From contig MGQB01000018.1 in NCBI GenBank assembly GCA_001797675.1, positions 30,495 to 94,494 of the forward strand: DNA of 64,000 bases, written 5' to 3'. A program made the translations under genes and the position numbers. Shown piece after piece: positions 1,130 through 60,052 of the stretch. Under the pieces are notes generated by a model. It saw only the letters and a list, made by a program, of their open reading frames with translations. It did not search any database and was not told the DNA's origin. The stretch is from Deltaproteobacteria bacterium RBG_13_43_22. Lineage in GTDB: Bacteria; Desulfobacterota; RBG-13-43-22. Each line of letters begins with the position of its first letter. Positions within the stretch are counted from its first letter, which is position 1.

Positions 1130-2116
1130 GTGGCTAACCTTATGCTCATAAAAACATTAATATCTTTGGTTATTTTTGCCTTGATTTATTTTGGAATTGC
1201 CGTTGGATTAATTTTTATCGGGAAGCCCAAAGAGCCGGATCAGACCGGGCGAAGGATAGCCTTTGATGAGTTAGTGATAGATTACTCAAGACTGCCGAAA
1301 CTGAACACCTTTACAGCCAGAAACAACACCAGTTTATCTTATCGGGTCTATCCATCTAAATCAAGTAATGCCCTGATACTCCTGCACGGCTCAGGCTGGC
1401 ATAGCCGGTATTTCCTGCCCTTGGCCGAATTCATTAGTTCGGAGGGTTCGGCTCAGGTCTATACCCCGGATTTAAGGGGACATGGCTCTGCTCCTGAAAG
1501 ACGGGGTGATGTCGATTATATCGGACAATTGGAAGATGATCTGGCTGACTTTATCGCCTCTATCCGAAAAGATAATCCAGGCATAAAAAAATTGATTGTC
1601 GGCGGTCATTCTTCCGGAGGCGGACTGGCCATACGTTTTGCCGGAAGCCGATATGGCAAACAAGCAGACGCCTACTTGTTGCTTTCTCCCTTTCTTAAAT
1701 ATAACGCTCCGACCATGCGGCCGAATTCAGGCGAATGGGCCCGTCCTTATACCCAACGCATCATCGGACTGACCCTGCTCAATAATGTGGGGATTCATCG
1801 GTTGGATTATTTGACGGCCATGGAGTTCAATATGCCCCAGGAAGTTCGTGATGGGACTGAAACCCTTGCTTACTCGCATCGACTCAACACGTCTTACGCC
1901 CCCCGTGATTATAAAAAAGATCTGAAAGCGGCAACCCAACCCATATTGGTTGTTGCCGGGACGAAAGACGAGGCCTTCATCGCCGATCAATTTGAACCGG
2001 TCTTTTCGTCATATACCAATGCCCAGGTAAGGCTTCTGCCGGGTGTAACCCACATGGGACTCGTGGTTGGTCCTGAAATACGACCGGTGGTCAAAGAATG
2101 GCTTGAAGGGCCTTAG
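1130..2116 (+). CDS. Membrane-anchored alpha/beta-fold hydrolase (lysophospholipase-like)
   Basis: N-terminal hydrophobic helix, HG motif (LLHGSG) and nucleophile elbow GGHSSGG. The start may be GTG 1130 or ATG 1142. Confidence 0.75.
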   Translation: MANLMLIKTLISLVIFALIYFGIAVGLIFIGKPKEPDQTGRRIAFDELVIDYSRLPKLNTFTARNNTSLSYRVYPSKSSNALILLHGSGWHSRYFLPLAEFISSEGSAQVYTPDLRGHGSAPERRGDVDYIGQLEDDLADFIASIRKDNPGIKKLIVGGHSSGGGLAIRFAGSRYGKQADAYLLLSPFLKYNAPTMRPNSGEWARPYTQRIIGLTLLNNVGIHRLDYLTAMEFNMPQEVRDGTETLAYSHRLNTSYAPRDYKKDLKAATQPILVVAGTKDEAFIADQFEPVFSSYTNAQVRLLPGVTHMGLVVGPEIRPVVKEWLEGP

Positions 2117-2191
2117 GGGAGGACATCCAATAGAGCCATTCTTTATCTTCTCTTCAACTCTTTCCAAAAAATACTATTTTCCATCAAATCC

Positions 2192-4885
2192 TTAAATGCT
2201 TCTCAAGGCTTCTTTAACCCGTTCCGGGGTGAAGGGAACTTGGCGCAAACGGATGCCGGCCGCCTGAAAAACCGCATTGGCGATAGCCGCCGGGGCCGGT
2301 CCCATGGCCCCCTCGCCCACACCCAGATAAGGCTGTCCCGGTTGGTTGAGCAATACGGTTTCGATCTTGGGTGCATCGGGAAAGCGGAAAATCGGGTAGC
2401 TGTGCCAGTCGACGCTGATGACGCCGTGTTGGTCAAAGGCCACCTGTTCCTTCAGGGTCCAACTGGCCGACTGGATAAAGGCCCCTTCGATCTGGCTGCT
2501 CACGGCCTCGGGGTTGACGATCTGTCCCACATCGGCGGCCAGGACGGCCCGTTCCAGTCCTATCAGGCCGCTCGTTCGGTTTACGCGCAAGGCCACGAAA
2601 ACCGCCGTATAACATTGCCGGTTTTTATAGCGGGACAGGGCGATACCGTACCCCAGGTCCTTCTCTTCACCTTTTTTATCCGGCTTCCAACCCGCTTTTT
2701 CAAATACCGCATTAAGGACGGCCCGAGCCCTTTTGTCGGCTAAATTGCGGAGGCGAAATTCCACTGGATCGATGTTGGCTACCCAGGCCAGCTCGTCCAT
2801 AAACGATTCAATGGCAAAGATATTGGCATAGGAACCTAATCCTCTCAAGGCTGAGACGCGCAATGGACTATCCGCTAAAAAGTGTTTGACAATGCGCCGC
2901 CGGGGAAAGGTGTAGATCGGATCGGCGTTGCGGTGAATACCGACATGATAGGCCATGACGGGAAAGGGCCGGGGCTGTTTAAAGGGTTTGGCCAGATGCC
3001 AGGAAGACAGTAAACCGGAACTTTCTTTTGACGGTCGCGAACGTCCCATATGGGTGTATCCCCGGACATCGTGGTTCCAATCGATCACTTCGCCTCTGCT
3101 GTTCAGGCTGGCTTGCATTTGGACAATAGTGGCCGCACCATAAGGTTCCCAGGTATTCTCCTCGATCCGCGCCCACTTGAGCGATACGGGCCGTCCGGGA
3201 AGGGCCCGGGCCAGCAGGGCGGCATCCAGGGCGGCATCATCCGCCCCATTGTGACCGTAACAACCCGGTCCATCCCTATGGATGACATGGATGTCGTTCT
3301 TATCCATTTCCAAGACCTGAGCCAGGGCCGACCTTAAAGGAAAAGCCCCCTGGGTATGAGACCAGACGGACAGCTTGCCGTCGATCAGTTGGGCTACAGC
3401 AGCCGAGGGACCCAGAGAGGCATGCATATGATAAGGCCGAAAGTATGTTTCAGCCAAAGTATGGGCCGCTTCGGCCGGCGTTTCAATGGGAGGTACCGGG
3501 GTCTCCACCGGGGTCCCTTCGACTACGAGGAAGGCCTGATCCGGTTGGCTCAGCATATGTTCGAACAGGGTCTCATAGGTGGGGAGGGTCGCCTCGGTCT
3601 TCCAGACGGCGGATTTTCGAAGGGCTTCCACCGCTTGAACGGCCTGTTCTTCGCGCTCGGCGATAACGGCCAGAAAGTTGCCGTCACGAACCCATTTAAG
3701 GACGCCCGGCATTGAATTTACGGCCTCTCCATCCACGGAAACCAGTTTGGCTCCGTAATTAGGTGGGCGGACCACCCGGCCGTGAACCATTCCCGGAAAC
3801 TCCAGATCCTGGACAAAACGGGCCCGTCCGGTCACCTTGTCCAGCAGATCAAGACGATATAGGGACTGCCCGACAATTTGATATTTTTCGGGTGATTTAA
3901 GAAAACCTATCCCCATGACCTTGGTATTGAATTTTTTCCCTCCGAAAAGTTCCCAGTAGGTCACTTGGGCTCCGGTGACCGGATCGGTAATGGTACCGTC
4001 GAATAAAGTAAGGTTCTCTACGGGTGCATCCAATCTCTCCCCGGCCGCCTCAAGCAATAGTTGCCTGGCCTCGGCAGCGGCGTTGCGGATGGCGTTGCCG
4101 GAGGTCTCCAGAGACAGACTGCTGGCGGTAACCCCTTCGTTGGGAGACTCAGCCGTATCGGCCGTCACCACCCGGATGCGGTCCAGAGACAGGTCCAGTT
4201 CTTCAGCCCCGATCATGGCCACAGAGGTCTTGATGTCCTGACCGAGTTCCGCCTTACCGGTAAAAATGGTCACGGTTTCATCGGTATTGATGCGCACCCA
4301 TGAGTCCAGATCCGGGGTATGCATAAGAGAGCCGGCCAGGCCGTCGGCCGGAACCGGAGCTTCCGTTCCTGATAAAGAATCCGGTTCTTGGTTGAATCCT
4401 TCCCGAAATGAGGGGGTATCAACAGGATGCCCAGCCGCCCGTTTGACAGCCCTGAGAATCCGATCATAGATACCGCAGCGGCACAGATTGTTGGCAATTG
4501 CGGCCCTGATTTCCGCATCGGTTGGATCGGGATTTCGGTCCAGGAGGGCCTTGGAGGCCATGATCATGCCGGAGACACAAAAACCGCACTGGACGGCATG
4601 TTCTTCCATAAAGGCCTTCTGAAGGGGATGGAGATTCCCGGGGGTTCCCAGGCCTTCCAGGGTGGTAATCTCACGGCCCTGAACGGAACGAACCGACAGA
4701 CGGCAGGAGGGTACGGCCTGGCCGTCGATCAGGATCGTGCAGGCCCCGCATTGTTCCAAACCGCAGGCGAACTTGGCCGCTTTTAAACCCAGATCGTTGC
4801 GCAAAACATAGAGCAAGGGTGTTTCCGGATCGACCTGAACCTGATGCATCTGGCCGTTTACTTTTAAATGAATCTCTCGAACCAT
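2192..4885 (-). CDS. Fused [2Fe-2S] small subunit + molybdopterin-binding subunit of an IorA/IorB-like (isoquinoline 1-oxidoreductase / aldehyde dehydrogenase type) molybdenum hydroxylase
   Basis: 897 aa. The N-terminal roughly 150 aa has the two [2Fe-2S] Cys patterns (CGLEQCGACT; CGFC; CRCG). The remainder resembles IorB-type Mo-binding subunits. Confidence 0.8.
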   Translation of the reverse strand: MVREIHLKVNGQMHQVQVDPETPLLYVLRNDLGLKAAKFACGLEQCGACTILIDGQAVPSCRLSVRSVQGREITTLEGLGTPGNLHPLQKAFMEEHAVQCGFCVSGMIMASKALLDRNPDPTDAEIRAAIANNLCRCGIYDRILRAVKRAAGHPVDTPSFREGFNQEPDSLSGTEAPVPADGLAGSLMHTPDLDSWVRINTDETVTIFTGKAELGQDIKTSVAMIGAEELDLSLDRIRVVTADTAESPNEGVTASSLSLETSGNAIRNAAAEARQLLLEAAGERLDAPVENLTLFDGTITDPVTGAQVTYWELFGGKKFNTKVMGIGFLKSPEKYQIVGQSLYRLDLLDKVTGRARFVQDLEFPGMVHGRVVRPPNYGAKLVSVDGEAVNSMPGVLKWVRDGNFLAVIAEREEQAVQAVEALRKSAVWKTEATLPTYETLFEHMLSQPDQAFLVVEGTPVETPVPPIETPAEAAHTLAETYFRPYHMHASLGPSAAVAQLIDGKLSVWSHTQGAFPLRSALAQVLEMDKNDIHVIHRDGPGCYGHNGADDAALDAALLARALPGRPVSLKWARIEENTWEPYGAATIVQMQASLNSRGEVIDWNHDVRGYTHMGRSRPSKESSGLLSSWHLAKPFKQPRPFPVMAYHVGIHRNADPIYTFPRRRIVKHFLADSPLRVSALRGLGSYANIFAIESFMDELAWVANIDPVEFRLRNLADKRARAVLNAVFEKAGWKPDKKGEEKDLGYGIALSRYKNRQCYTAVFVALRVNRTSGLIGLERAVLAADVGQIVNPEAVSSQIEGAFIQSASWTLKEQVAFDQHGVISVDWHSYPIFRFPDAPKIETVLLNQPGQPYLGVGEGAMGPAPAAIANAVFQAAGIRLRQVPFTPERVKEALRSI

Positions 4886-4948
4886 GTTTTCCTCCTAAGG
4901 GCGATAAAGAGGATAAATTTTTCAAGGAAAAATAAAGTTATCGTTTTG

Positions 4949-4977
4949 AGGATATTGAGACTAATCCGGGATGTCAA
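4949..4977 (-). promoter_or_regulatory. Putative sigma-70 promoter for the 2192-4885 gene
   Basis: The minus strand reads TTGACA-N17-TATCCT about 65 nt upstream of the ATG. Confidence 0.35.
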
Positions 4978-5122
4978 GAAAGAACTGGGAAATCCGTCAA
5001 TTGGGAAGTCCTCAAAAAACCAGGTACCGTTGTCTCCAATTTAAGGCAAATTATTCACAATTGGGGAGGTTCAGGAAAAATCTGAACCCGTCCCCGATTT
5101 CTTCAGGTTTTTCCCTTTTCGA

Positions 5123-5151
5123 TTGATTTTAACTGTTGGATATGTTTTAAT
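5123..5151 (+). promoter_or_regulatory. Putative sigma-70 promoter with no downstream CDS
   Basis: TTGATT-N17-TTTAAT on the plus strand, about 80 nt upstream of an intrinsic terminator. Confidence 0.25.
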
Positions 5152-5228
5152 TTGTTCATTAAAAAATAAGCGTTCCTCCAATCGGCAACCCCAAACCCGA
5201 GAGGCTGGTCCAAGAAGCAGTCCGACAA

Positions 5229-5266
5229 GACCCCATTTTTCAAAAAAGAAATGGGGTTTTTATTTT
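5229..5266 (+). terminator. Rho-independent terminator (orphan, plus strand)
   Basis: Stem ccccattt / aaatgggg followed by tttttatttt. No plus-strand CDS lies upstream. Confidence 0.6.
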
Positions 5267-5337
5267 GATGTGGATGATAAAAGGGAGTAGAATAATTGGA
5301 TTAAATCAAAAACAATCGGACAAATGGGAGGAAATAA

Positions 5338-5359
5338 GTTGTTTTAGAACCAACGTCCC
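5338..5359 (+). repeat. Copy 1 of the roughly 20-bp terminal motif (gttgttttagaACCAACGTCCC)
   Basis: 19/22 identical to 8765-8786 in direct orientation. Its core is the inverted complement of 7703-7725. Confidence 0.7.
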
Positions 5360-5420
5360 GTCCCACGCTTGCATGTGCCTTCGGCACCGCAAGCTCGTGC
5401 CACGGGTCAACGCCGCATTA
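5349..5420. repeat. attC/REP-like imperfect palindrome S0
   Basis: Arms cccgtcccacgcttgc / gcaagctcgtgccacggg with bulges and a loop containing GCCTTCGGC. The 22-nt 3' motif gccacgggtcaacgccgcatta is identical to 6262-6283. Confidence 0.6.
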
Positions 5421-5441
5421 GCTACATAAGGGATTGGTACT

Positions 5442-6131
5442 ATGCCTGAAGTTGCAATCCATTTTGCTGTGAAGAATAGTTTGGGTAACAGATCCAGCAT
5501 TTGGAAATGCTGGGCTAATATGGGAAACGGCAAGAATGACGTCTATGTCACGAATAGGGCTATAGGGAAGGCCGTAAAAACAAGCCTGCACGAATCCGGT
5601 TCATGGCATATCGCATTTGATTCGCGCTTCCTCAAAGAAGAAATCCAAGAAGAGAGTCGTTTACTATCAAATCGTTTCGTTGATAGATGGTCAAGGCCCG
5701 CTGAAATTGGTGCGGGGTGCACATTGGCTTTACGTATCATAATTCCCGAAGATACGATTACGATTCCCATGAGGAACACAGATCCCAATTCGACAGTCTG
5801 GATTTCAGCACCACCATCCGGTAAAGCAGTCGAGATTGTTTTGCTCTTGACGGCACCTCATTTCAAAACCTTGGGCTGGCCAGGGCGTGATACAATGGGG
5901 GCGCAGTTGCTTGAGAGTTTTCAGATTGAAAATGGCTATCGTTGCTGGATAGTTTACTATGTTATTGATAAACCTAAGATGGACCCCAGAAAGGGAGTAC
6001 CCACGTACTTCAAATCTGGAAAGCGAAACATTCAGAAAAGCCGAAAATACCGAGCCGTCATTTTTAGCGAATCGAAGGATGGCTCTCGTATTCTTTTTGA
6101 ATGCAATGTTCAAATACAAATGACCAGCTAA
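5442..6131 (+). CDS. Hypothetical protein (cassette-like ORF A)
   Basis: 229-aa ORF with no motif I recognise. It starts about 20 nt after palindrome S0. Confidence 0.5.
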   Translation: MPEVAIHFAVKNSLGNRSSIWKCWANMGNGKNDVYVTNRAIGKAVKTSLHESGSWHIAFDSRFLKEEIQEESRLLSNRFVDRWSRPAEIGAGCTLALRIIIPEDTITIPMRNTDPNSTVWISAPPSGKAVEIVLLLTAPHFKTLGWPGRDTMGAQLLESFQIENGYRCWIVYYVIDKPKMDPRKGVPTYFKSGKRNIQKSRKYRAVIFSESKDGSRILFECNVQIQMTS

Positions 6132-6148
6132 CCCGGCATTCAAGCGGA

Positions 6149-6186
6149 GCGCCAACAGCCGCGTCCGCTTAATTCTTTGTTGGCGC
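6149..6186. repeat. Short inverted repeat GCGCCAAC-N22-GTTGGCGC (S1a)
   Basis: Perfect 8-bp complementary boxes directly after the ORF A stop. A nested stem aagcgga/tccgctt lies inside. Confidence 0.5.
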
Positions 6187-6197
6187 CGCCGCAGGCG

Positions 6198-6283
6198 GCA
6201 CCAACAAAGCCATTGGACCCGATGTCCCTCGCTGCGTGGCCTTCGGCCCCCGCAGCAGCGGGCCACGGGTCAACGCCGCATTA
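6198..6283. repeat. attC/REP-like imperfect palindrome S1b (homologous to S0)
   Basis: Arms acccgatgtccctcgctgcg / cgcagcagcgggccacgggt, loop GCCTTCGGC, and the same 22-nt 3' motif as S0. Confidence 0.6.
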
Positions 6284-6297
6284 TGTGAAGGAGACCA

Positions 6298-6975
6298 ATG
6301 GACAAAGTACCTCAAATCGACAACGGAAAAAGACCGGAGGACTTTATCAATATTGTCAATCTACCCCACTTCCCAAGTAACACTCCATTTGGGAACCTCC
6401 TGCTTAAGGGCATGAACATAGTTCGTCGAATTGACAAGGTCAATTTGGAAATACGCCGTGTTTTTGGCTCCTATGTCCATCCGTCAAACCAAGACATAAA
6501 CAACCCGAACCCCCATCAGGACGTACTCGAACATCAATTCTATGCGGAACAGGTCGTTTATTGGTTGCGCAAAACGGCTGATGAAATCGTGGCCCTTGCG
6601 TATGTCATCAATCAGCACAGAAACACTGGGAGTTGGCCCGAATCGGTGCAAGTCGATTCTATCTCGGGTTTGAAAAACAGCCATTCGGAGGAACTCCGTC
6701 TCCTCTTTAAACCACACGAGGGGTTTCTCTCGACCCTCAACGAGATCGCGAATGCCTTCAAGCACTCGTTCATAAATACCGACATGACTTTGATTGGTTC
6801 TGAATACCCTGTTGTCTTCGCTCTCGGGTTGAAGTACAACAAACTGAGCAATCAGCCGAAGTTTTACACGGTCAGCTTCGCGGAGATGATCACTGCTTTC
6901 TCAGCATTCTACAAGCAATCCATGGCAGGGATTCAGGGGTGGGTCACATTCAGCAACGATAGCGACAAACCATGA
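6298..6975 (+). CDS. Hypothetical protein (cassette-like ORF B); weak HEPN-like N-x3-H motif
   Basis: 225-aa ORF with ANAFKH at residues 151-156. No other recognisable domain. Confidence 0.5.
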   Translation: MDKVPQIDNGKRPEDFINIVNLPHFPSNTPFGNLLLKGMNIVRRIDKVNLEIRRVFGSYVHPSNQDINNPNPHQDVLEHQFYAEQVVYWLRKTADEIVALAYVINQHRNTGSWPESVQVDSISGLKNSHSEELRLLFKPHEGFLSTLNEIANAFKHSFINTDMTLIGSEYPVVFALGLKYNKLSNQPKFYTVSFAEMITAFSAFYKQSMAGIQGWVTFSNDSDKP

Positions 6976-6982
6976 AAGGCGC

Positions 6983-7041
6983 ACATAACCCGTCGTTCCA
7001 CCGGATTGCTTACGCTCCCGGTGAACTCGGCGTTGGCTTGT
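6983..7041 (+). repeat. attC-like site S2 (59 bp)
   Basis: 5' ACATAAC, then imperfect arms ccgtcgttccaccgg / ccggtgaactcggcg with bulges, then 3' GTTGGCTTGT. The 3' box is the exact reverse complement of the 5' box of S3. Confidence 0.5.
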
Positions 7042-7089
7042 AGAAAATTACATCCTAAGATTTAGTTTGATAGGAGAAATGGGAGCAAT

Positions 7090-7647
7090 ATGAGATTGAT
7101 ACATTGGAGCTATTTCCTTGCCTTGGAAGAAGACTTTCTACGACTTGGCAGATTTGTAGAATTCAACAGTAAGAATTTCGCCACTTTCTCCCTTGAAATG
7201 GCACATCTGTTGCTGGCAGCTTCATCAGAAACCGATGTGGTACTCAAAATGCTGTGCAAGCTGTTCGCGCCTGATGCACAAAACGAAGCCAACTATCGTG
7301 CAACTATTCCGCAAAACATATCTGATTTTACGAAATTGAAGGTTGATATGCCAAGGTATGAACTGAGTTTCCAGCCATGGCAGCCTTGGGACAGTAATCA
7401 AACGCCTGATTGGTGGACAGCGTATAACAAAGTTAAGCATGAGCGTGATTCATACTATGAAAAGGCAAACCTTGGAAACGTCCTTCAGTCCATGGCGGCC
7501 CTTTTTGTGAGCAACCTTTACCTTTATAAGGACTTGGCTAATAAAGGCGAGTTGAGCCCTTGGCCGCAGCTCTTTTACCCTGAAGATCAGTATAGCACAG
7601 GAGTTACGCCCGGAGAAGGAGGCTGGGCGTTGGTTTGTAAGCTTTAA
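7090..7647 (+). CDS. Hypothetical protein (cassette-like ORF C); possible divergent HEPN-like protein
   Basis: 185-aa ORF. Helical N-terminus with an acidic patch (LALEEDFLRLGRFVEF) and WWTAYNKVKHER at residues 108-119. Confidence 0.5.
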   Translation: MRLIHWSYFLALEEDFLRLGRFVEFNSKNFATFSLEMAHLLLAASSETDVVLKMLCKLFAPDAQNEANYRATIPQNISDFTKLKVDMPRYELSFQPWQPWDSNQTPDWWTAYNKVKHERDSYYEKANLGNVLQSMAALFVSNLYLYKDLANKGELSPWPQLFYPEDQYSTGVTPGEGGWALVCKL

Positions 7648-7650
7648 CTC

Positions 7651-7720
7651 ACAAGCCAACAAGTAAATCCAGCGGACGGCTTACAGCCGCCGCTGATTTG
7701 AAGAAAGGGGGACGTTGGTG
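7651..7720 (+). repeat. attC-like site S3 (70 bp), abutting the left inverted repeat of the Y1 element
   Basis: 5' ACAAGCCAAC, arms aaatccagcggacggc / agccgccgctgattt with two extrahelical bases, loop GCTTAC as in S2, and 3' GTTGGTG. Confidence 0.5.
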
Positions 7721-8793
7721 CTGAATTGACTTGACAAGGGTTTATATGGGGTTTAAACAGTAAATTATGCCAAGACAAGCGAGACTTGATGCACCAGGGA
7801 CCTTGCACCATGTTATGGGGCGGGGAATTGAGGGTGCCAAGATATTCAGAAATAAGCCGGATCGGGAGGATTTCGTCAGGCGAGTGGCCGACCTCTGTCG
7901 GGGGGGTTATATTATAATCTATGCCTGGGCACTGATGCCTAATCATTTTCATCTTTTGATCAGGACCCACGAACATCCTCTTTCAACAGGCATGAGGAAA
8001 CTTCTAACGGGTTATGTGGTGAATTTTAACCGGCGTCATAAGCGATTCGGACATCTCTTTCAGAACAGGTTTAAATCGATTATCTGTGAAGAAGATCCCT
8101 ATTTGTTGGAGCTCACCAGATATATCCATCTCAACCCTTTGCGGAAGGGGTTGGTTGAAGGAATGGAGGAACTTAAGAATTATCCCTGGACCGGGCATTC
8201 AGCCATTCTGGGCGAAACGAAGCAGAACTGGCAGGATAACGATGCAGTACTTTCCTATTTCAGTTCCAGGAAAAAAAAGGCCATTTTGCTTTATGAGAAA
8301 TTTGTTACCGAAGGGATTACCCAGGGTAGGAAACCTGAGTTGGTGGGGGGTGGGTTAATTCGGAGCATGGGGGGATGGTCTGAGGTTCTTGCTTTAAGGA
8401 GAAAAGATAAAAGACTTGTTTCGGACGAGAGGGTTTTGGGAAGTGGCGAATTTATTCGGGGCCTGTTTTCAGAGGCGGAGCAGAGAGCGAAGGAAACGCT
8501 GAGATTCTCGGAGAAGGTAATTGATTTGGCTTCGTTGGCTCGGGAAATAGTTAAAGAAGTAGGGATAAAGGAGTCGGAGTTAAGGTCAGGCAGCCGACAA
8601 AAACAGGTTTCTAAAGTAAGAAGGCTGTTTTGTCAAGTAGCGGTTAAGAAGATGAGATATCCTGGGGCAGAAGTAGCCCGTTTTTTGGGTGTGACGACTT
8701 CAGCCGTCAATCGGTTAGCCAATTCAACCCAAGGGGAATAACAGGGATATGGTTTTATTATTAAATTGTTTCAGCACCAACGTCCCCTTTTTT
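7703..8793 (+). mobile_element. Y1/HUH transposase element bounded by 18-22 bp inverted repeats
   Basis: ggggACGTTGGTGCTGAA (7707-7725 region) is the perfect reverse complement of TTCAGCACCAACGTcccc (8770-8787 region). The pair encloses only the transposase-like gene. Confidence 0.7.
7767..8741 (+). CDS. IS200/RAYT-like Y1 (HUH) transposase with C-terminal DnaA-C-like helix-turn-helix
   Basis: 324 aa with HUH motif PNHFHLLI, catalytic-Tyr region LTRYIHLNPL, and C-terminal HTH GAEVARFLGVTTSAVNRL. Confidence 0.8.
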   Translation: MPRQARLDAPGTLHHVMGRGIEGAKIFRNKPDREDFVRRVADLCRGGYIIIYAWALMPNHFHLLIRTHEHPLSTGMRKLLTGYVVNFNRRHKRFGHLFQNRFKSIICEEDPYLLELTRYIHLNPLRKGLVEGMEELKNYPWTGHSAILGETKQNWQDNDAVLSYFSSRKKKAILLYEKFVTEGITQGRKPELVGGGLIRSMGGWSEVLALRRKDKRLVSDERVLGSGEFIRGLFSEAEQRAKETLRFSEKVIDLASLAREIVKEVGIKESELRSGSRQKQVSKVRRLFCQVAVKKMRYPGAEVARFLGVTTSAVNRLANSTQGE

Positions 8794-8905
8794 GGGAAGA
8801 AGATTTTATTACGCCTGACCGGCATAGCCTGTTGGGTTCGCACCAGCAGAGCCGGTGGTTTAATCTTCATTATAAAGGATCATTTCGATCATAAAGGAGG
8901 AAACC

Positions 8906-9997
8906 ATGAAAGGAAAAGTCGCTATCTTTGCCGGACCGATGAATGATATGGAATTCCGTGAATATCCGCTTCCGGAGGTAGGGGCGGACGATATACTGGT
9001 CAAGATTCACCGCGCCAATATTTGTGGGTCCGACCTGCATATCTGGCGGGGCCATGGACCCGGAATGCCCAGGAAAAGACCCACCGTACCCGGGCACGAG
9101 ATGGTAGGAGAGATCTTTCGTCTCGGAAAAAATGTCCGATCCGATTGTCTCGGGCAACCCCTGGAGGAAGGAGATCGTATTGCCTACTCTTACTTTTCGG
9201 CCTGCGGTGTTTGTCCGGCTTGTCTGAACGGGTCACCGGCTTGTCCGAACCGGTATCGAAACTGGATGCAGGACGCCAATGAATCCCCACATTTCCGGGG
9301 TGCCTATGGTGAGTACTATTACCTTCATAAAGGACAAACCGTCTGCAAGATCCCCCCCGAGCTCAGCGATGAAATCGTCGCGCCGGTGAATTGCGCCCTG
9401 TGCGAGTCGATTTACGGGCTCGATCAAATCGGTATTCGATTAGGAGACACACTCGTCGTCCAGGGGGCAGGCGGCCTGGGATTGTACGCAACCGCTGTGG
9501 CCAAGGATATGGGTGCCGCCCAGGTGATCGTCTTTGACAAGCTTCCCGATCGCCTTGAACTGGCCAAGGCATTCGGTGCAGATTGGGTGGTAAACGTTGA
9601 CGAAGTGGATGAAAAGGGACGCAGGGAGATTGTATTCGATCGAACACGCGGACAGGGTGCCGACGTTGTCGGTGAGTTCGTTGGAGCACCTCAGGCCGTC
9701 GAGGAAGGAATTCGGCTTCTTCGCCAGGCCGGGAGGTACTTCTGGGTGGGTAACATCACGCCCGGTACGGGGTCGAACCTTGATCCGGGTACGGTCGTTC
9801 GGGGTTCTCAAACCATCCGGGGCATTGCCGTGTATGAACCCTGGGTCCTGCCGCGGGCCATCGACTTTCTGGTTCGACGGAGAAACGTCTATCCCTTTGA
9901 AAAGATCATTTCCAACACCTTTCCCTTTGAGGAAATCAACAAGGCCTTCCACTTTGCCAACGAGGGAAAGGCCATACGAGTATCATTAAAGATGTAA
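8906..9997 (+). CDS. Zinc-dependent alcohol dehydrogenase family (MDR) oxidoreductase
   Basis: 363 aa with catalytic Zn motif GHEMVGEI, structural Zn Cys cluster CGVCPACLNGSPACPN and Rossmann motif VQGAGGLG. Confidence 0.8.
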   Translation: MKGKVAIFAGPMNDMEFREYPLPEVGADDILVKIHRANICGSDLHIWRGHGPGMPRKRPTVPGHEMVGEIFRLGKNVRSDCLGQPLEEGDRIAYSYFSACGVCPACLNGSPACPNRYRNWMQDANESPHFRGAYGEYYYLHKGQTVCKIPPELSDEIVAPVNCALCESIYGLDQIGIRLGDTLVVQGAGGLGLYATAVAKDMGAAQVIVFDKLPDRLELAKAFGADWVVNVDEVDEKGRREIVFDRTRGQGADVVGEFVGAPQAVEEGIRLLRQAGRYFWVGNITPGTGSNLDPGTVVRGSQTIRGIAVYEPWVLPRAIDFLVRRRNVYPFEKIISNTFPFEEINKAFHFANEGKAIRVSLKM

Positions 9998-10044
9998 TTT
10001 CCTCGGATTGCTGGGCCGTTTAAGATAGTAATAAGGAAAAATAA

Positions 10045-10791
10045 ATGAAAGTCGTCTACCATAAGGATTATAACCAAGTCTATTCGTCCGACCCCGCTTC
10101 CGCCGCCGGAAGAATTCGAACCATCGAAATGGAACTGCGGGGAAAGGTCCACTTTATTACACCTCTTGCGGCAACACGAGAGGATATTCTCATGGTGCAC
10201 ACACCGGAACACATTAGTTCCGTCGAACGAGAGGGGGTCTATGATATCGCCGCATTGGCCGCAGGAGGCGCCATCGAAGCGGCGCAAATCGGATTAAACG
10301 AACCTTGTTTTGCCGTGATTCGCCCGCCGGGACATCACGCTTCGGCCTCAAGTGCATGGGGTTTTTGTTATTTTAACAATATGGCGATCGCCCTGGAAAA
10401 AATAAAACGCGAAGGAAAAATTAATAAAGCTTTTATTCTGGATTTCGATCTGCACTTCGGGGACGGGAATGTCAATATTCTGAGCGGCAAGGGATATTGT
10501 ACCATTTTTAATCCGGGGCCGGAAAACCGCAACGAATATTTAAAAAGCGTGGAGGCCGCTCTGGCGCAGACGGATGCCGACATGATCGCCGTTTCTGCCG
10601 GATTCGATAACCACGAAGAGGATTGGGGGGGCCTGCTGAAAACCGAAGATTATACCTTTATGGGAAAACTGGTAAGGAAAACCGCCGAACGCAATAAAGG
10701 CGGCTGTTTCGGCATTTTAGAAGGGGGCTACAATCACGGGGTTTTGGGTAAAAATGTGCTGGCCTTTATCGAAGGGCTGAAAGGAAAGTAG
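10045..10791 (+). CDS. Histone deacetylase-family amidohydrolase (short form)
   Basis: 248 aa with IRPPGHHA and DFDLHFGDG metal and active-site motifs. Confidence 0.8.
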   Translation: MKVVYHKDYNQVYSSDPASAAGRIRTIEMELRGKVHFITPLAATREDILMVHTPEHISSVEREGVYDIAALAAGGAIEAAQIGLNEPCFAVIRPPGHHASASSAWGFCYFNNMAIALEKIKREGKINKAFILDFDLHFGDGNVNILSGKGYCTIFNPGPENRNEYLKSVEAALAQTDADMIAVSAGFDNHEEDWGGLLKTEDYTFMGKLVRKTAERNKGGCFGILEGGYNHGVLGKNVLAFIEGLKGK

Positions 10792-11350
10792 AATAATTGT
10801 GAATGATAATAATAACCTTGTCCACTTCTTTCACTTCTTTAGTTATCCGAAAAACAAGACCCCGGCCTTTGTTTTCTGTCCTTGTTCGTGAAATTTTTTG
10901 TTGGTTAAGTTGTTTCTTTATTGAATTTTGTTGAAAAACTCCCCATCTTAGAGAGATGGCCGGAAGCCTTAAGAAGGTGGTCTTGGGGTTAGAGCCTACG
11001 GCCAACTGTCACAACCGCGTCCCGCTGAAAGCGGGATCAGTGAGCAAAGGGTAAACCGATTCTCTTGACAGGGTTAATACTTAGGATGTCCCAATCTCTT
11101 TTTCATATCAGATTATTACTATCTCATCCGGCATGGGATTTTTCAACCAAAACGATCATGCCTGCCCTCGACGAAGCCCCGTATTTTTAAAAAAACCCTT
11201 AAGTTCCAACAAGATATTTCCGAAAAACAATCAGGAGAAGAAAAATAGAGGTTCTCCGGGTGGCAGCCTCATGTTTTGGCCTAGGGGTTTCGAGCGGAGA
11301 GCAACCTGGCTGGAAGGCCCATAAAATTACCAAGAAAGGTAAAAATAACA

Positions 11351-12172
11351 ATGGCATATGACATTTCCTTAACCCAAGGAATGCGTGCCAATTTAATCAG
11401 TTTGCAGTTGACCAGTAAACTTGTTAGCGTCGCTCAGGCCCGTTTGTCCACCGGTAAAAGGGTGAATACGGCCATAGATGATCCGGTCAACTACTTTGCC
11501 GCACAGGACCACCTGACCCGGACGGCCGATCTGGCTTCCCGGAAGGTCGGTATGGGTGAGGCTATCAATATTGTAGCCGCGGCCGATAAGGGGATAACCG
11601 CCATCAATGCTTTGATTGAGCAGGCCAAAGCTATTGCCACATCGGCCCTGGCCATCAAGGATTCCGATTCCAGACAATTTTATGAAACCCAGTTCAACGC
11701 GGTTATGAGTCAAATTACGGACGTAGCGAAGGATTCCGGGTATAAGGGGACTAATCTCCTGGATGCAGGTTCCTTCGATGTCAAATTCAATGAAGACGGT
11801 TCCTCCAAACTGACGGTGAGCGGTTTTGGAGCGACTACTTTGAGTGAGATCGGATTACGCTTTGCAATGAATTGGCAATTTTTTGATGACATATCCATCA
11901 ACGATGACCTGTCAGGGATTGGAACGGCCTGCGAGATTTTAAGAACCAAGGCCAAAACCCTGGCGTCTAATATGAATGTCATCACCACCCGTCAGGATTT
12001 TACAAAAAACATGATCGATACCCTGAAAACCGGTGCTGATGATTTGACTTTGGCCGACATGAATGAAGAATCGGCTAATTTGCTCATGCTTGGAATCCGT
12101 CATTCTTTAGGCAGGGTTTCACTCTCTATTGCCTCCAAGGCGGCCCAGTCCGTTTTGAGACTATTCGAGTAA
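11351..12172 (+). CDS. Flagellin (short, about 273 aa type)
   Basis: N-terminal LSTGKRVNTAIDDP and a C-terminal helical segment ending SVLRLFE. Length and termini resemble short alphaproteobacterial-type flagellins. Confidence 0.75.
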   Translation: MAYDISLTQGMRANLISLQLTSKLVSVAQARLSTGKRVNTAIDDPVNYFAAQDHLTRTADLASRKVGMGEAINIVAAADKGITAINALIEQAKAIATSALAIKDSDSRQFYETQFNAVMSQITDVAKDSGYKGTNLLDAGSFDVKFNEDGSSKLTVSGFGATTLSEIGLRFAMNWQFFDDISINDDLSGIGTACEILRTKAKTLASNMNVITTRQDFTKNMIDTLKTGADDLTLADMNEESANLLMLGIRHSLGRVSLSIASKAAQSVLRLFE

Positions 12173-12448
12173 CGATAAATATTTTTATTAAATATAATAA
12201 AATTATTGGATCCTGATTACTATCGATTGTTTGCCCGAAAAAGGTCTCTTCAGGTGGCCCCTCCCGTTAAGTTTAAATATCCAGAAAAAATTTTTTGAGC
12301 TAAAGTCCTTATCTCTTCCCTTGGTGTTGAAGCTGCAGGTATAATAACAACTGCCCGGAATAAGCAAAAGAGGATAAAGTTGTTAATAACCATGGCAAGC
12401 CGGATTATCAGAGGCGACCCTCTTCACGAAAAAGGTAAAACGCTTCTT

Positions 12449-13204
12449 CTATTTTATCCACAGGGATAGTAACAGCACTCCTGCCATAAGGATAATGGGG
12501 ATCCAATGAAGAAGGGGTATTTTTGAAAGGCGGGAAGGGAGGTTCTCTTGATAACCCCGGGCGGCCAGGGCAAAGGTCACCTCTTCAACCTCGAGAATGG
12601 AACGGCGAAGAACAGGCAGGGCAATAAATTTCGCTTTCCGAACTGGATTGAAGTTCCGATCCCCCAGGCGCGCTTGGTGCGCTGCCCTGACTTCTTCGAC
12701 CTGGTCCAGGATACGCGAAAAAAATCTTAAGGCAAGGGAAACCATCAAACCGATTCTGCGCTCCGGTAAAAAAGGGATGGGCTTTAGCATCCAGACAAGG
12801 ACCTCACATACGTCTCGCGGCCGGGTGGTGGCGGTGAAAAGGAGGGCATAACCGATCATAAGTCCCAACCGCCAGGAGGTCAGTCCTCCCTGAAGGAGAC
12901 CTTCTTGACTGACAGGAAGCCAGGGGAAAAGAGGTAATCGACCTCCGGGGGTCAGAAAAATCTGAAAAAGAAAGAGGACAAAAAGAAAGATCGCCCAGAA
13001 TTTGAAATCCTTAAAGAATAATCTAAACGGCAAACGGGAAAGAAAAAAGAGAAAGAACAGAAAGATCGAATCAAGGAAAAACCAAAAGATCGATGTTTGA
13101 ATCAGGGTTGCAGTGATCAGTAACAGTCCCAAAAATCTGCAACGGGCATCCCAACGGTGAAGAAAGGAGTCTCCCGGAAAATAATGAAAGACTATTCGAG
13201 CCAA
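12449..13204 (-). CDS. bioN: ECF transporter transmembrane (T) component, BioN/CbiQ family
   Basis: 251-aa polytopic membrane protein that overlaps the upstream ATPase gene and is clustered with bioY. Confidence 0.75.
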   Translation of the reverse strand: MARIVFHYFPGDSFLHRWDARCRFLGLLLITATLIQTSIFWFFLDSIFLFFLFFLSRLPFRLFFKDFKFWAIFLFVLFLFQIFLTPGGRLPLFPWLPVSQEGLLQGGLTSWRLGLMIGYALLFTATTRPRDVCEVLVWMLKPIPFLPERRIGLMVSLALRFFSRILDQVEEVRAAHQARLGDRNFNPVRKAKFIALPVLRRSILEVEEVTFALAARGYQENLPSRLSKIPLLHWIPIILMAGVLLLSLWIK

Positions 13205-59690: not shown

Positions 59691-60052
59691 AAAGATACCA
59701 GGGTTAAGATTTACTTTATTTTTATATTAGGGGTTGGAACAGACCAGACTATTTCTATTGCCCGACTCACAGTAGCCGAATAGAACCCGGAGCTAACCCG
59801 CAGATCGTTTGCGAAGGGTCTGGGTTGAGCGACTGGATAGATTTTGTGCCTTACGAATTTTTGTTTTTTGGGCCGGTCGAAACATCCAAACTTACCCTTC
59901 TGATTTAAACAGCTTCTAATTTTGAATGGGATTCAGCTAATAACTCCTTAAAATACGAATATATTTTTTTGTTTTCATTTGCAACTCCGCTAATAATCAG
60001 TTATCTTTAGAGAAAGAAATGATAACGGCCGTTCACAAAATCGGGAAATGAA

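What the first reader, a model, noticed from the sequence alone, without database searches (positions are those of the whole stretch)
5338..8793. 3.45-kb accessory island delimited by three copies of a roughly 20-bp motif, with a Y1/HUH transposase and three orphan ORFs as possible cargo
Seen in the sequence: gttgttttagaACCAACGTCCC (5338-5359) and attgtttcagcACCAACGTCCC (8765-8786) are 19/22 identical direct repeats. The reverse-complement copy ggggACGTTGGTGCTGAA lies at 7703-7725. The middle and right copies form perfect 18-bp inverted repeats around a single gene encoding an IS200/RAYT-like Y1 transposase (HUH = HFH, YIHLNP Tyr region, C-terminal DnaA-C-like HTH). The left and middle copies form an inverted pair around three same-strand orphan ORFs (229, 225 and 185 aa). 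The block sits between a Mo-hydroxylase gene and a Zn-ADH gene and looks lower in G+C than either. Inference: either a cargo-carrying non-autonomous element lies back-to-back with its autonomous partner, or one composite element is mobilising three unknown genes. Classic IS200/IS605 Y1 elements lack terminal inverted repeats, so this architecture is atypical.
Basis: partly seen in the sequence, partly recalled or inferred. Interest (0 to 1): 0.7.

Follow-up and report, generated by a model that had tools for sequence, protein, structure and literature searches.

The report
Y1 "TIRtron" beside integron cassettes
The block is not one cargo-carrying transposon but two known kinds of mobile DNA lying side by side: a small inverted-repeat-flanked tyrosine (Y1/HUH) transposase unit of a described type, and three integron-style gene cassettes that carry their own attC recombination sites.

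Summary
Three copies of the ~22-nt motif lie at 5336-5359, 7704-7725 and 8770-8791, and nowhere else in the 64 kb. The last two form a 22-nt inverted repeat around an intact Y1/HUH gene with an HTH tail.

That unit is a known architecture: a "TIRtron"/TIRYT (Di Nocera 2013), TnpA-Y1 subclass 2.1.2 (Quentin 2018). In 54 relatives' loci the same 1.04-1.15 kb unit runs from GGG(G)ACG to CGTCCC(C). Two copies in one MAG are 98.6% identical exactly tip to tip.

ORFs A-C are not cargo. The repeat tips point towards them, so they lie outside both ends. Genuine mini-derivatives have tips outward.

Each ORF instead ends in an integron attC site. A covariance model built only from sites outside the window ranks the sites after ORF B (36.6 bits) and ORF A (32.9 bits) first in the whole window. 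The third site is truncated exactly where the TIRtron's left repeat begins. No integrase is detectable, so this is a CALIN-type array.

ORF B and C homologues occur elsewhere separately, without a TIRYT gene. The solo copy is a family-typical stray repeat (extra copies at 18 of 55 units). Island G+C equals the window mean.

Verdict: an ordinary mosaic with some interesting family-level details.

The parts
5178..5226 (+). Spacer element 'E' (blocks CCAATCG / GAGGCTGGTC / GTCCGAC).
   Evidence: by eye on the alignment; MAFFT mis-registers the window row; no Rfam match
5227..5260 (+). Terminator-like hairpin (14 pairs followed by a T-run), followed by a weak sigma-70-like site at 5265-5293.
   Evidence: consensus scan only
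5336..5359 (+). Solo TIR copy, with tip GTCCC at 5355-5359 pointing right. It is identical over 24 nt to the right-end TIR of relative L009. The tip is tandemly duplicated (GTCCCGTCCC, 5355-5364).
5354..5423 (+). D1 copy 1: a long imperfect hairpin ending CTCGTGCCACGGGTCAACGCCGCATTAGCT. It is an attC-like but non-canonical element in the 5' leader of ORF A.
   Evidence: D1 family 5370-5420 / 6233-6283; -18 kcal/mol, z -2.8
5442..6131 (+). ORF A (229 aa): cassette gene with a confident all-beta model and unknown function.
6126..6185 (+). attC site of cassette A: R'' AGCTAAC (contains the ORF A stop codon), L'' ATT-C-AAGCGGA, 15-nt loop, L' TCCGCTT-AAT, R' GTTGGCG.
   Evidence: (strict geometry scan), (32.9 bits, E=2.8e-6 with a model built without window sequences; parallels the verified aadA1 attC)
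6175..6209 (+). Strong 16-bp hairpin formed by the R' of attC-A (GTTGGCG) and a downstream R''-like CACCAAC.
   Evidence: I4; -16.8 kcal/mol, z -5.0
6199..6286 (+). D1 copy 2, in the 5' leader of ORF B: R''-like CACCAAC, TTG-G-ACCCG / CGGGT-CAA arms, ending ATTATGT.
   Evidence: (-22.5 kcal/mol, z -2.2)
6298..6975 (+). ORF B (225 aa): cassette gene of unknown function. Homologues occur in an integron array (L091) and between toxin-antitoxin modules (L093).
6983..7038 (+). attC site of cassette B: R'' ACATAAC, L'' GTT-C-CACCGGA, L' CCCGGTG-AAC, R' GTTGGCT.
   Evidence: z -2.1, full attC-like fold; 36.6 bits, E=2.6e-7; best hit in the window
7090..7647 (+). ORF C (185 aa): cassette gene with a helical, weakly HEPN-toxin-like model. 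Homologues sit in defence islands and directly after a type I R-M operon.
7654..7703 (+). Truncated attC of cassette C: R'' AGCCAAC (7654-7660), L'' AAT-C-CAGCGGA (7666-7676), L' CCGCTG-ATT (7690-7698), spacer TGAAG. The expected R' position (7704) is where the TIR begins.
   Evidence: geometry met without GTT; z -4.7; partial match to model positions 13-41, 12.3 bits
7704..7725 (+). Left terminal inverted repeat (LE) of the TIRtron, AAAGGGGGACGTTGGTGCTGAA; outer tip GGGGG at 7707-7711.
   Evidence: (I1)
7767..8741 (+). TIRYT gene (324 aa): Y1/HUH core (NHFH 59-62, YIHLNP 119-124) plus a C-terminal DnaA-C-like HTH. It is intact and full length relative to the family.
8770..8791 (+). Right terminal inverted repeat (RE), TTCAGCACCAACGTCCCCTTTT; outer tip CCCC at 8784-8787.
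   Evidence: (I1)
8792..8878 (+). Strain-specific remainder of the variable slot. Homology with the alternative strain contig L120 resumes at 8879.

Best explanation
The region is a mosaic of two known kinds of element in a strain-variable slot between the Mo-hydroxylase and ADH genes.

(1) Positions 7704-8791 are a TIRtron. This is a ~1.08-kb unit made of one gene for a TIR-associated tyrosine (Y1/HUH) transposase (TIRYT; TnpA-Y1 subclass 2.1.2, with a DnaA-C-like HTH tail), bounded by 22-nt terminal inverted repeats whose conserved GGGGACG tips face outward. By analogy with other Y1 enzymes, the protein is inferred to cut and rejoin DNA at those tips and to move the unit as a whole. This has not been shown for any TIRYT.

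(2) Positions ~5360-7703 are an integrase-less integron cassette array (a CALIN). It holds three co-oriented single-gene cassettes (ORFs A, B, C), each ending in an attC site. Sites A and B are complete. Site C is cut off at its R' box exactly where the TIRtron's left repeat starts, so the TIRtron most likely inserted into, or recombined at, the last attC. The cassettes would be moved one at a time by an integron integrase supplied in trans, through folded single-stranded attC sites. That is established integron biology and was not tested here.

(3) The third motif copy (5336-5359) is a stray solo TIR of a sister element, of a kind commonly found near these units. It does not delimit a transposable cargo.
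For: TIRtron:
- The family has at least 8000 close homologues.
- Of 80 genomic loci, 54 have the same unit of 1040-1150 bp. The outer tips GGG(G)ACG / CGTCCC(C) are conserved, the inner repeat parts co-vary between left and right arms, and the flanks are unrelated.
- L027 and L028, from one MAG, are 98.6% identical over exactly the 1065 bp from tip to tip.
- Internally deleted mini-units keep their tips outward.
- The HuH and Y motifs and the HTH tail match those published for subclass 2.1, and the TIR architecture was published as TIRtron/TIRYT.

Cassettes:
- A strict attC-geometry scan finds 3 distinct sites in 128 kb of sequence, against a mean of 0.79 hits in shuffles. Two of them lie directly after the ORF A and ORF B stop codons on the + strand.
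- A covariance model built only from non-window sites plus the verified aadA1 attC ranks 6983-7038 (36.6 bits) and 6126-6185 (32.9 bits) first in the whole window. Site C matches in its L box only.
- The L'' box AGCGGA is shared with attC sites in other loci.
- The sites fold as hairpins with an extrahelical base.
- No tyrosine recombinase is detectable in the window.
- ORF B and C homologues sit in cassette arrays, defence islands and toxin-antitoxin contexts, never together and never with a TIRYT gene.

Solo TIR: 18 of 55 units have extra TIR copies within 6 kb, and the solo copy is identical to the right TIR of L009.

Variable slot: contig L120, from the same metagenome, has a different TIRYT (47% identical) directly upstream of the same ADH gene.

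Precedent: 38% of CALINs have a neighbouring IS, and an IS200/IS605 element lies directly after the last attC in H. halochloris.
Against: - The attC calls rest on my own detector and a 10-sequence model, not on IntegronFinder.
- The R' boxes (GTTGGCG, GTTGGCT) depart from GTTRRRY at the last two or three positions.
- The spacers are unusually long and carry extra structured repeats (D1, E) that I cannot explain.
- L086, which shares D1, E and an ORF C homologue, has no canonical attC by the same model.
- No integrase is known for this genome, and the tblastn test used sequences recalled from memory.
- No empty site was found, so the insertion history, including 'TIRtron inserted into attC-C', is inferred from one junction. 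Other TIRtrons near attC sites do not abut them.
- No TIRYT has ever been shown to transpose.
- L120 could be a chimeric short contig.
Confidence: 0.72

Rival explanations
1. One reading: a composite or cargo-carrying Y1 transposon. The TIRYT enzyme uses the solo copy together with the left or right repeat to mobilise ORFs A-C, either as a non-autonomous partner element or as one 3.45-kb element.
For: There are three copies of the repeat confined to this locus. The enzyme gene is intact. The Logan unitigs break just left of the solo copy and just left of the left repeat, hinting at population heterogeneity at these junctions. Solo and miniature TIR copies show that the family does generate non-autonomous derivatives.
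Against: The polarity is wrong. Tips face the ORFs, whereas 55 units and three mini-derivatives all have tips facing outward. The solo and right copies are direct repeats, not inverted ones. ORFs A-C each carry their own attC. Their homologues are scattered singly in other contexts without a TIRYT gene. No second copy of the block exists in any collection searched; all copies found are the same locus at 100% identity. Using the solo end and the left end on one strand would, by the IS608 logic, delete the intervening DNA as an end-less circle rather than mobilise it (inference).
Confidence: 0.07
2. A domesticated, immobile TIRYT. The gene is a host-retained RAYT-like enzyme, and its flanking repeats and the solo copy are protein-binding or regulatory sites rather than transposon ends. 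The cassettes are unrelated neighbours.
For: The gene is single copy in the window, and all recovered copies of this exact protein sit in one context. Quentin et al. report low copy number (mean 1.9) and low identity between intragenomic copies (49%) for subclass 2.1. Protein conservation is very high, with top hits at 63-76% identity, as expected under purifying selection. The HTH tail could bind the repeats.
Against: L027 and L028 are near-identical tip-to-tip copies at unrelated sites in one MAG. There are deletion derivatives and stray ends. Many homologues lie on ~1-1.5 kb contigs, consistent with assemblies breaking at repeated copies. Different TIRYTs occupy the same slot in near-identical strains. 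All of this argues for at least occasional mobility.
Confidence: 0.12
3. Functional coupling. TIRYT enzymes act on attC-type hairpins, so TIRtrons home to cassette arrays and can truncate, capture or rearrange cassettes without an integron integrase. The window would show one such event.
For: The left repeat starts exactly at the expected R' position of attC-C. About 10 of 80 TIRtron loci have attC-type sites within 6 kb. Of the 18 model hits, 17 are on the TIRYT gene's strand, or 10 of 11 when the hits at seed sites are excluded, while control loci have none outside a known array. Both systems use single-stranded DNA substrates. In this subgroup the TIR core GTTGGTG resembles the array's R' boxes GTTGGCG and GTTGGCT.
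Against: Most TIRtrons (about 70 of 80) have no attC nearby. In the other array-associated loci the unit lies 350-1400 nt from the nearest attC, with no abutting hairpin. Co-orientation can arise indirectly, because both element types are biased relative to replication. More distant family members have TIRs without GTTGG. IS elements next to CALINs are common in general.
Confidence: 0.08

Closest known systems
TIRtron / TIRYT (Di Nocera et al. 2013, PMC3733652), which is TnpA-Y1 subclass 2.1, subgroup 2.1.2 (Quentin et al. 2018, PMC6006769; Bertels group 1 RAYTs)
   Same: It has a single Y1/HUH gene with HuH motif NH[YF]H (here NHFH) and Y motif Y[IV]HLNP (here YIHLNP). It has FQ at the 'W' position and a C-terminal Bac_DnaA_C-like HTH. 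It is flanked by long terminal inverted repeats that start with GGGG, not by REP hairpins. Stray, dimeric or clustered TIR copies occur nearby.
   Different: The TIR tip here and in the 54 relatives' loci is GGGGACG(T/C), which fits the published GGGGWSAS consensus at 6 of 8 positions. The published set held 26 examples, mostly from other phyla. This Desulfobacterota-centred clade is far larger (at least 8000 proteins) and shows tip-to-tip duplicated copies and mini-derivatives that those papers did not report.
CALIN, a cluster of attC sites lacking an integron integrase (Cury et al. 2016, PMC4889954)
   Same: There are at least two co-oriented attC sites within 4 kb and no integrase nearby. 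It is a short array of unknown-function cassettes, and a transposase gene lies next to it, as for 38% of CALINs.
   Different: The sites were called with an in-house model, not IntegronFinder. The third attC lacks its R' box. The leaders of cassettes A and B carry an extra attC-like hairpin (D1) that has ATT where GTT is expected.
RAYT / REPtron (TnpA-REP with flanking REPs)
   Same: It belongs to the same class-2 Y1 branch (Y---NP motif). The gene is bracketed by inverted copies of a short repeat, and it is single copy in its genome region.
   Different: The flanking repeats are not self-palindromic GTAG-tagged REPs. No high-copy REP family is visible in the 64 kb. The NCBIfam RAYT equivalog score is 59.6, below the cutoff of 80. 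The protein is twice as long because of the HTH tail.
IS200/IS605 insertion sequences (IS608, ISDra2)
   Same: They share the Y1/HUH catalytic domain (Pfam PF01797) and a presumed single-strand cut-and-rejoin chemistry. There is a published case of such an IS directly downstream of a CALIN (ISHahl1, PMC7923331).
   Different: IS200/IS605 transposases are ~150 aa with a Y---Q motif. Their ends are subterminal hairpins without inverted repeats, and tnpB is often present. None of this applies here.

Membership tests
TIRtron / TIRYT (TnpA-Y1 subclass 2.1.2) | Y1/HUH core with HuH motif NH[YF]H and Y motif Y[IV]HLNP | tested here: met
   N59-H60-F61-H62 and Y119-I-H-L-N-P124 are invariant in an 18-sequence alignment. 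Pfam Y1_Tnp E=1.6e-8.
TIRtron / TIRYT (TnpA-Y1 subclass 2.1.2) | C-terminal HTH related to Bac_DnaA_C / HTH_23 / HTH_28 | tested here: met
   Bac_DnaA_C matches residues 259-309 at E=9.5e-4 and 19.6 bits, below Pfam's 31.5 cutoff. Several homologues carry a precomputed PF08299 hit. The tail is strongly conserved.
TIRtron / TIRYT (TnpA-Y1 subclass 2.1.2) | Gene flanked by long terminal inverted repeats rather than REP hairpins | tested here: met
   There is a 22-nt, 95% inverted repeat 41 nt upstream and 28 nt downstream of the gene. The same holds in 54 of about 70 testable relatives.
TIRtron / TIRYT (TnpA-Y1 subclass 2.1.2) | TIR carries the shared motif GGGGWSAS | tested here: inconclusive
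   The tip is GGGGACGT, which is 6 of 8. The clade consensus is GGG(G)ACG(T/C). The published consensus was derived from a small set.
TIRtron / TIRYT (TnpA-Y1 subclass 2.1.2) | Enzyme cuts and joins DNA at the repeats, or moves the unit | not testable with these tools
   There is only indirect support: 98.6% identical tip-to-tip copies in one MAG and deletion derivatives.
IS200/IS605 | Short (~150 aa) TnpA with a Y---Q motif; subterminal hairpins and no inverted repeats | tested here: not met
   The protein is 324 aa, has a Y---NP motif, and has 22-nt terminal inverted repeats.
RAYT / REPtron | Gene bracketed by GTAG-tagged self-palindromic REPs that also form a high-copy family in the genome | tested here: not met
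   The repeat has no GTAG head and is not self-palindromic. There are only three copies in 64 kb. NCBIfam REP_Tyr_transpos scores 59.6 bits against a cutoff of 80. The whole genome was not available.
Integron cassette array (CALIN) | At least two attC sites on one strand within 4 kb | tested here: met
   Sites 6126-6185 and 6983-7038 (+) score 32.9 and 36.6 bits with a model built without window sequences, and they are the top two hits in 128 kb. They are also found by the strict geometry scan. IntegronFinder itself was not run.
Integron cassette array (CALIN) | attC architecture: R'' (RYYYAAC), spacer, L'' with an extrahelical base, variable loop, L', spacer, R' (GTTRRRY) | tested here: met
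   Sites A and B have AGCTAAC/ACATAAC, 5-nt spacers, a 3 bp + bulged C + 6-7 bp L box, and GTTGGCG/GTTGGCT. This is the same layout as the verified aadA1 attC. The R' boxes deviate from RRRY. Site C lacks R'.
Integron cassette array (CALIN) | No integron integrase nearby | tested here: met
   tblastn with IntI1 and XerD sequences recalled from memory finds nothing better than E=0.2 in 64 kb. The IntI1 query did detect a remnant next to the array in L091, so the query works. The rest of the genome was not available.
Integron cassette array (CALIN) | Cassettes are independent units found in different arrays and contexts | tested here: met
   ORF B and ORF C homologues (62-75% identical) occur singly in five other contexts, including an array with canonical attC sites. 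ORF A contexts were not examined.
   The tips at 5359 and 7707 face the ORFs. All 55 units and three mini-derivatives have tips facing outward.

The most novel reading that the evidence does not exclude
TIRYT-type Y1 enzymes are functionally linked to integron-type cassette arrays. On this reading, TIRtrons enter arrays in a fixed orientation, can take the place of an attC R' box (as at 7704), and their stray repeats, together with the attC-like D1 hairpins that carry ATT where GTT is expected, mark an integrase-independent route for rearranging or immobilising cassettes. The data that do not exclude this are as follows. About 10 of 80 TIRtron loci lie within 6 kb of attC sites. Of 18 model hits, 17 are co-oriented with the gene. 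The left repeat replaces the last attC's R' box exactly. D1 occurs in two unrelated arrays.
Probability: 0.08. Interest if true: 0.75.

Novelty: new member of a known kind. Interest (0 to 1): 0.33.

Why it matters
For this window the practical outcome is a corrected annotation. The block is a TIRtron plus a three-cassette CALIN, not a new cargo transposon, and ORFs A-C should be treated as integron cassettes (ORF C is possibly a HEPN-like defence gene).

More broadly, the TIRYT clade found here is very large (at least 8000 close homologues, mainly in Desulfobacterota, Nitrospirota and Methylomirabilota) and has never been studied experimentally. This analysis adds several family-level observations:
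- sharply defined 1.04-1.15 kb units;
- near-identical duplicated copies within one genome;
- mini-derivatives;
- short tandem duplications next to the tips;
- co-orientation with attC arrays.

These give concrete substrates and predictions for anyone testing how a Y1/HUH enzyme can work with terminal inverted repeats, which the IS608 'peel and paste' model does not explain.

Tried and rejected
- Rfam searches of 4800-9200 and of L086 at permissive thresholds gave nothing for the TIRs, attC sites, D1 or E.
- G+C as evidence of foreign origin was rejected, because the island equals the window mean.
- I looked for D1 near other TIRtrons. It is absent; only the TIRs match.
- A D1 17-mer search in IMG/VR gave 12 hits, none with extended context, so they are chance matches.
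- I looked for a target-site duplication or a conserved insertion target for TIRtrons. None was found among the 55 units.
- I tested attC-targeted insertion as a family rule and rejected it. Only the window has a hairpin abutting the left tip.
- The empty-site search via ADH orthologues in metagenomes found relatives at 57-83% amino-acid identity whose DNA matches the window only within the ADH gene, so no empty site. It did reveal the L120 variant.
- Exact-protein look-ups for TIRYT, ORF A, ORF C and ADH found only the same locus at 100% identity.
- Sequence searches of TIRYT (profile and catalytic domain) against PDB found no hit to solved Y1 transposases.
- PDB profile searches for ORFs A-C found nothing significant. 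ORF B and ORF C are unrelated to each other. ORF A's only fold matches are antibody Fabs at TM about 0.19, which is meaningless.
- PADLOC, PHROGs and NCBIfam gave no usable hit for ORFs A-C.
- I considered treating the TIRYT gene itself as a fourth cassette (AACAGG...CCTGTT pairing around the right repeat, GTTGGGT at 8831). It is not supported by the attC model.

Full report
**Observation.** The left copy lies at 5336/5338-5359 (+). The middle copy lies at 7704-7725 as the reverse complement. The right copy lies at 8765/8770-8791 (+). The repeat finder reports the middle and right copies as a 22-nt, 95% complementary inverted repeat. It reports the left and right copies as a 25-nt, 88% direct repeat, and the left and middle copies as a 24-nt, 79% inverted pair. 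With at most one mismatch the 12-nt core occurs only at these three places in the 64 kb. The enclosed 324-aa ORF matches Pfam Y1_Tnp and, weakly, Bac_DnaA_C. It scores 59.6 bits on the NCBIfam RAYT equivalog, below the cutoff of 80. The island's G+C is 0.471, the same as the window mean of 0.474. The two flanking genes (0.55-0.57) are the outliers, so composition is uninformative. The contig comes from 'Deltaproteobacteria bacterium RBG_13_43_22'. The same locus, 100% identical, is present in three other assemblies.

**The transposase unit is a known architecture.** The protein has at least 8000 close homologues. The listed top hits are 63-76% identical over the full length, and many sit on ~1-1.5 kb contigs. 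I fetched 80 genomic loci, mostly Desulfobacterota MAGs, with some Nitrospirota, Methylomirabilota and Elusimicrobiota. In 54 of them the gene is bracketed by 15-34 nt inverted repeats. The left arm ends ~30-45 nt before the start codon, and the right arm starts ~0-40 nt after the stop. The outer tips are conserved as GGG(G)ACG / CGTCCC(C). The inner repeat sequence differs between loci, but the left and right arms co-vary. The unit is 1040-1150 bp long and its flanks are unrelated, with no consistent target sequence or duplication.

The literature already describes this. Di Nocera et al. (2013) named TIR-flanked tyrosine-transposase genes TIRtrons and their proteins TIRYTs, with a shared TIR motif GGGGWSAS, and noted stray TIR families in dimers or clusters. 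Quentin et al. (2018) place 20 of the 26 published examples in TnpA-Y1 subclass 2.1. That subclass has HuH motif NH[YF]H, Y motif Y[IV]HLNP and, in subgroup 2.1.2, a Bac_DnaA_C-like tail. The window protein has NHFH, YIHLNP and that tail.

**The unit is mobile at least occasionally.** Two loci from one MAG (L027 and L028) are 98.6% identical over exactly 1065 bp, tip to tip, with unrelated flanks. Internally deleted mini-units of 150, 188 and 262 nt, with both tips facing outward, occur in L081, L028 and L021. Extra TIR copies (solo ends, mini pairs or tandem arrays) lie within 6 kb of 18 of the 55 units analysed, the window included. The window's solo copy is identical over 24 nt to the right repeat of relative L009, so it is a bona fide family TIR. 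Its tip is tandemly duplicated (GTCCCGTCCC). Many relatives show a similar short duplication next to their tips.

**Why ORFs A-C are not cargo.** The conserved tips define polarity: element DNA lies on the inner side of GGGGACG... and of ...CGTCCCC. In the window the solo copy's tip (5359) and the left repeat's tip (7707) both point towards ORFs A-C, so the ORFs lie outside both ends. This is the opposite of every full unit and mini-derivative in the family. The solo and right copies are direct repeats and cannot be the two ends of one element. By the logic of IS608 chemistry, cutting at a right end and at the next left end on one strand would delete the intervening DNA as a circle without ends. 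It would not mobilise it. This step is inference.

**What ORFs A-C are.** Each ORF is followed by the layout of an integron attC site. For A (6126-6185) this is AGCTAAC, 5 nt, ATT·C·AAGCGGA, a 15-nt loop, TCCGCTT·AAT, 5 nt, GTTGGCG. For B (6983-7038) it is ACATAAC, 5 nt, GTT·C·CACCGGA, a loop, CCCGGTG·AAC, 5 nt, GTTGGCT. This closely parallels the aadA1 attC, which I recalled from memory and then verified as 100% identical in R100 and thousands of other plasmids.

A strict geometry scan of both strands of the window finds three distinct sites, against a mean of 0.79 hits in shuffles. Two of them are these. I then built a covariance model from nine attC sites in other loci plus aadA1, using no window sequence. 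With filters off, its two best hits in the whole window are site B (36.6 bits, E=2.6e-7) and site A (32.9 bits, E=2.8e-6), both full length on the + strand.

The site after ORF C has R'' AGCCAAC, a 5-nt spacer, AAT·C·CAGCGGA / CCGCTG·ATT and a 5-nt spacer. The position where R' should start (7704) is the first base of the TIRtron's 22-nt left repeat. The model matches only its L box. No tyrosine recombinase is detectable in the window with recalled IntI1 and XerD queries. Two complete attC sites without a nearby integrase meet the CALIN definition of Cury et al., who also report that 38% of CALINs have a neighbouring IS. An IS200/IS605 element directly after the last attC of a CALIN has been published.

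**The cassettes are independent modules.** ORF C homologues (65-75% identical) lie in three settings: a long same-strand array of unrelated small genes (L086), a defence island (L090), and directly after a type I R-M operon (L126). ORF B homologues (62-67% identical) lie in an array with canonical attC sites next to an IntI N-terminal remnant (L091) and between toxin-antitoxin pairs (L093). They are never together, never with ORF A, and never with a TIRYT gene.

On function, ORF C gives a very confident helical model (pLDDT 95.7) with weak but consistent matches to HEPN toxins. ORF A is a confident all-beta protein with no meaningful match. ORF B has no match.

**The slot is strain-variable.** A second contig from the same metagenome (L120) is 96.8% identical to the window from 8879 into the ADH gene. 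Upstream, however, it carries a different TIRYT gene (47% identical) with a normal left repeat and no right repeat. The variable segment therefore extends to ~8878 on the right. On the left it starts at or before 5178, where a spacer element (E) shared with L086 begins.

**Is there a deeper link between TIRtrons and attC arrays?** The independent model finds attC-type sites within 6 kb of about 10 of 80 TIRtron loci. Of the 18 hits, 17 are on the TIRYT gene's strand, or 10 of 11 when the hits at seed sites are excluded. Control loci have none outside the known array in L091. In those loci, however, the unit lies 350-1400 nt from the nearest attC, and only the window has a hairpin abutting the tip. 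Most TIRtrons have no attC nearby. Shared bias relative to replication, and shared residence in accessory regions, can explain the pattern. I keep functional coupling as a low-probability novel reading.

**Unexplained.** D1 is a ~70-90 nt imperfect hairpin in the leaders of ORF A and ORF B and in two spacers of L086. It ends in the conserved sequence CTCGTGCCACGGGTCAACGCCGYATTR. It has attC-like traits: an R''-like box, and in copy 2 a 3 bp + bulge + stem arm. All four copies have ATT where an attC has GTT. It is missed by the attC model and by Rfam. It may be a variant or inactivated attC class, or an unrelated leader structure.

**Verdict.** The block is a known kind of Y1 unit (a TIRtron) lying against a small integrase-less cassette array, plus a stray repeat. 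It is a new member of known kinds and of moderate-to-low interest. The family-level observations and D1 are worth a specialist's look.

Noticed in passing
window 5354-5423 and 6199-6286; L086 ~5235-5300 and 6026-6100: D1 is a conserved structured repeat in the leaders of cassette genes, with a 27-nt conserved 3' part CTCGTGCCACGGGTCAACGCCGYATTR. It is attC-like (an R''-like box and bulged arms), but all four copies have ATT where attC has GTT. It is not in Rfam and is not hit by the attC model.
   Followed up: partly
window 5178-5226; L086 ~4370-4420, ~5200-5250, ~6410-6460, ~11900-11960: Spacer element E has three conserved blocks (CCAATCG, GAGGCTGGTC, GTCCGAC) in the same order in the window and in at least three L086 spacers. 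L120:150-175 has a looser resemblance, judged by eye only. There is no Rfam match and its function is unknown.
   Followed up: partly
L010, L031, L036, L048, L058, L060, L073, L074, L078 (flanks of the units); window 5355-5364: Short tandem duplications of the TIR tip plus a few flanking bases lie next to many TIRtron ends, for example CGTCCCC-TATAT-CCGTCCCC-TATAT in L031. This could be a footprint of repeated cutting and rejoining at the tip, or of slippage.
   Followed up: no
L120:1-1607 (JGI Ga0214473_10376079): A near-identical strain in the same metagenome carries a different TIRYT gene (47% identical) directly upstream of the same ADH gene. It has a left repeat and a second upstream tip-like copy (L120:117) but no right repeat. 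This is either a hot spot or replacement at this slot, or a chimeric contig.
   Followed up: partly
L086 (JGI Ga0427919_0005015), 1545-12865: This is a long same-strand array of unrelated small genes (R-M pair, barnase/barstar, hydrolases, an ORF C homologue). Its 200-460 nt spacers hold several repeated modules (E, D1, and three copies of a ~70-nt remnant encoding an HTH C-terminus, ...EIAEHLG.H...SRAIKW...), but no canonical attC by the model. It may be a decayed or non-integron cassette array.
   Followed up: partly
L006-L085, model R1 hits (L011, L019, L026, L029, L053, L054, L057, L062, L078): attC-type sites near TIRtrons are almost always on the same strand as the TIRYT gene (17 of 18 hits). 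In L029 and L078 the unit sits inside an array, with attC sites on both sides.
   Followed up: partly
window 59780-59842 (-): There is a weak full-length match to the attC model (18.6 bits, E=0.026, ATC in place of AAC). It could be a degenerate lone attC or a chance match.
   Followed up: no
window 7090-7647; L090, L126: ORF C family: invariant W..WW..N..KH motif, a confident helical model with weak HEPN-toxin similarity, and homologues embedded after a type I R-M operon and in a TIR/SLFN/PIN/MmeI defence island. It is a candidate defence or toxin gene.
   Followed up: partly
L091:7813-7932 (-): A 40-aa stretch similar to the N-terminus of IntI1 (E=8e-5) lies just upstream of, and divergent from, cassettes with canonical GCCTAAC...GTTGGGC attC sites. 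It is probably an integrase remnant.
   Followed up: no
window 6175-6209 and 7627-7661: Hairpins of the form GTTGG...CCAAC arise where an attC R' box (or coding sequence) is followed by an R''-like box. The first is a 16-bp stem (z -5.0) between attC-A and D1, resembling an empty mini-cassette.
   Followed up: no
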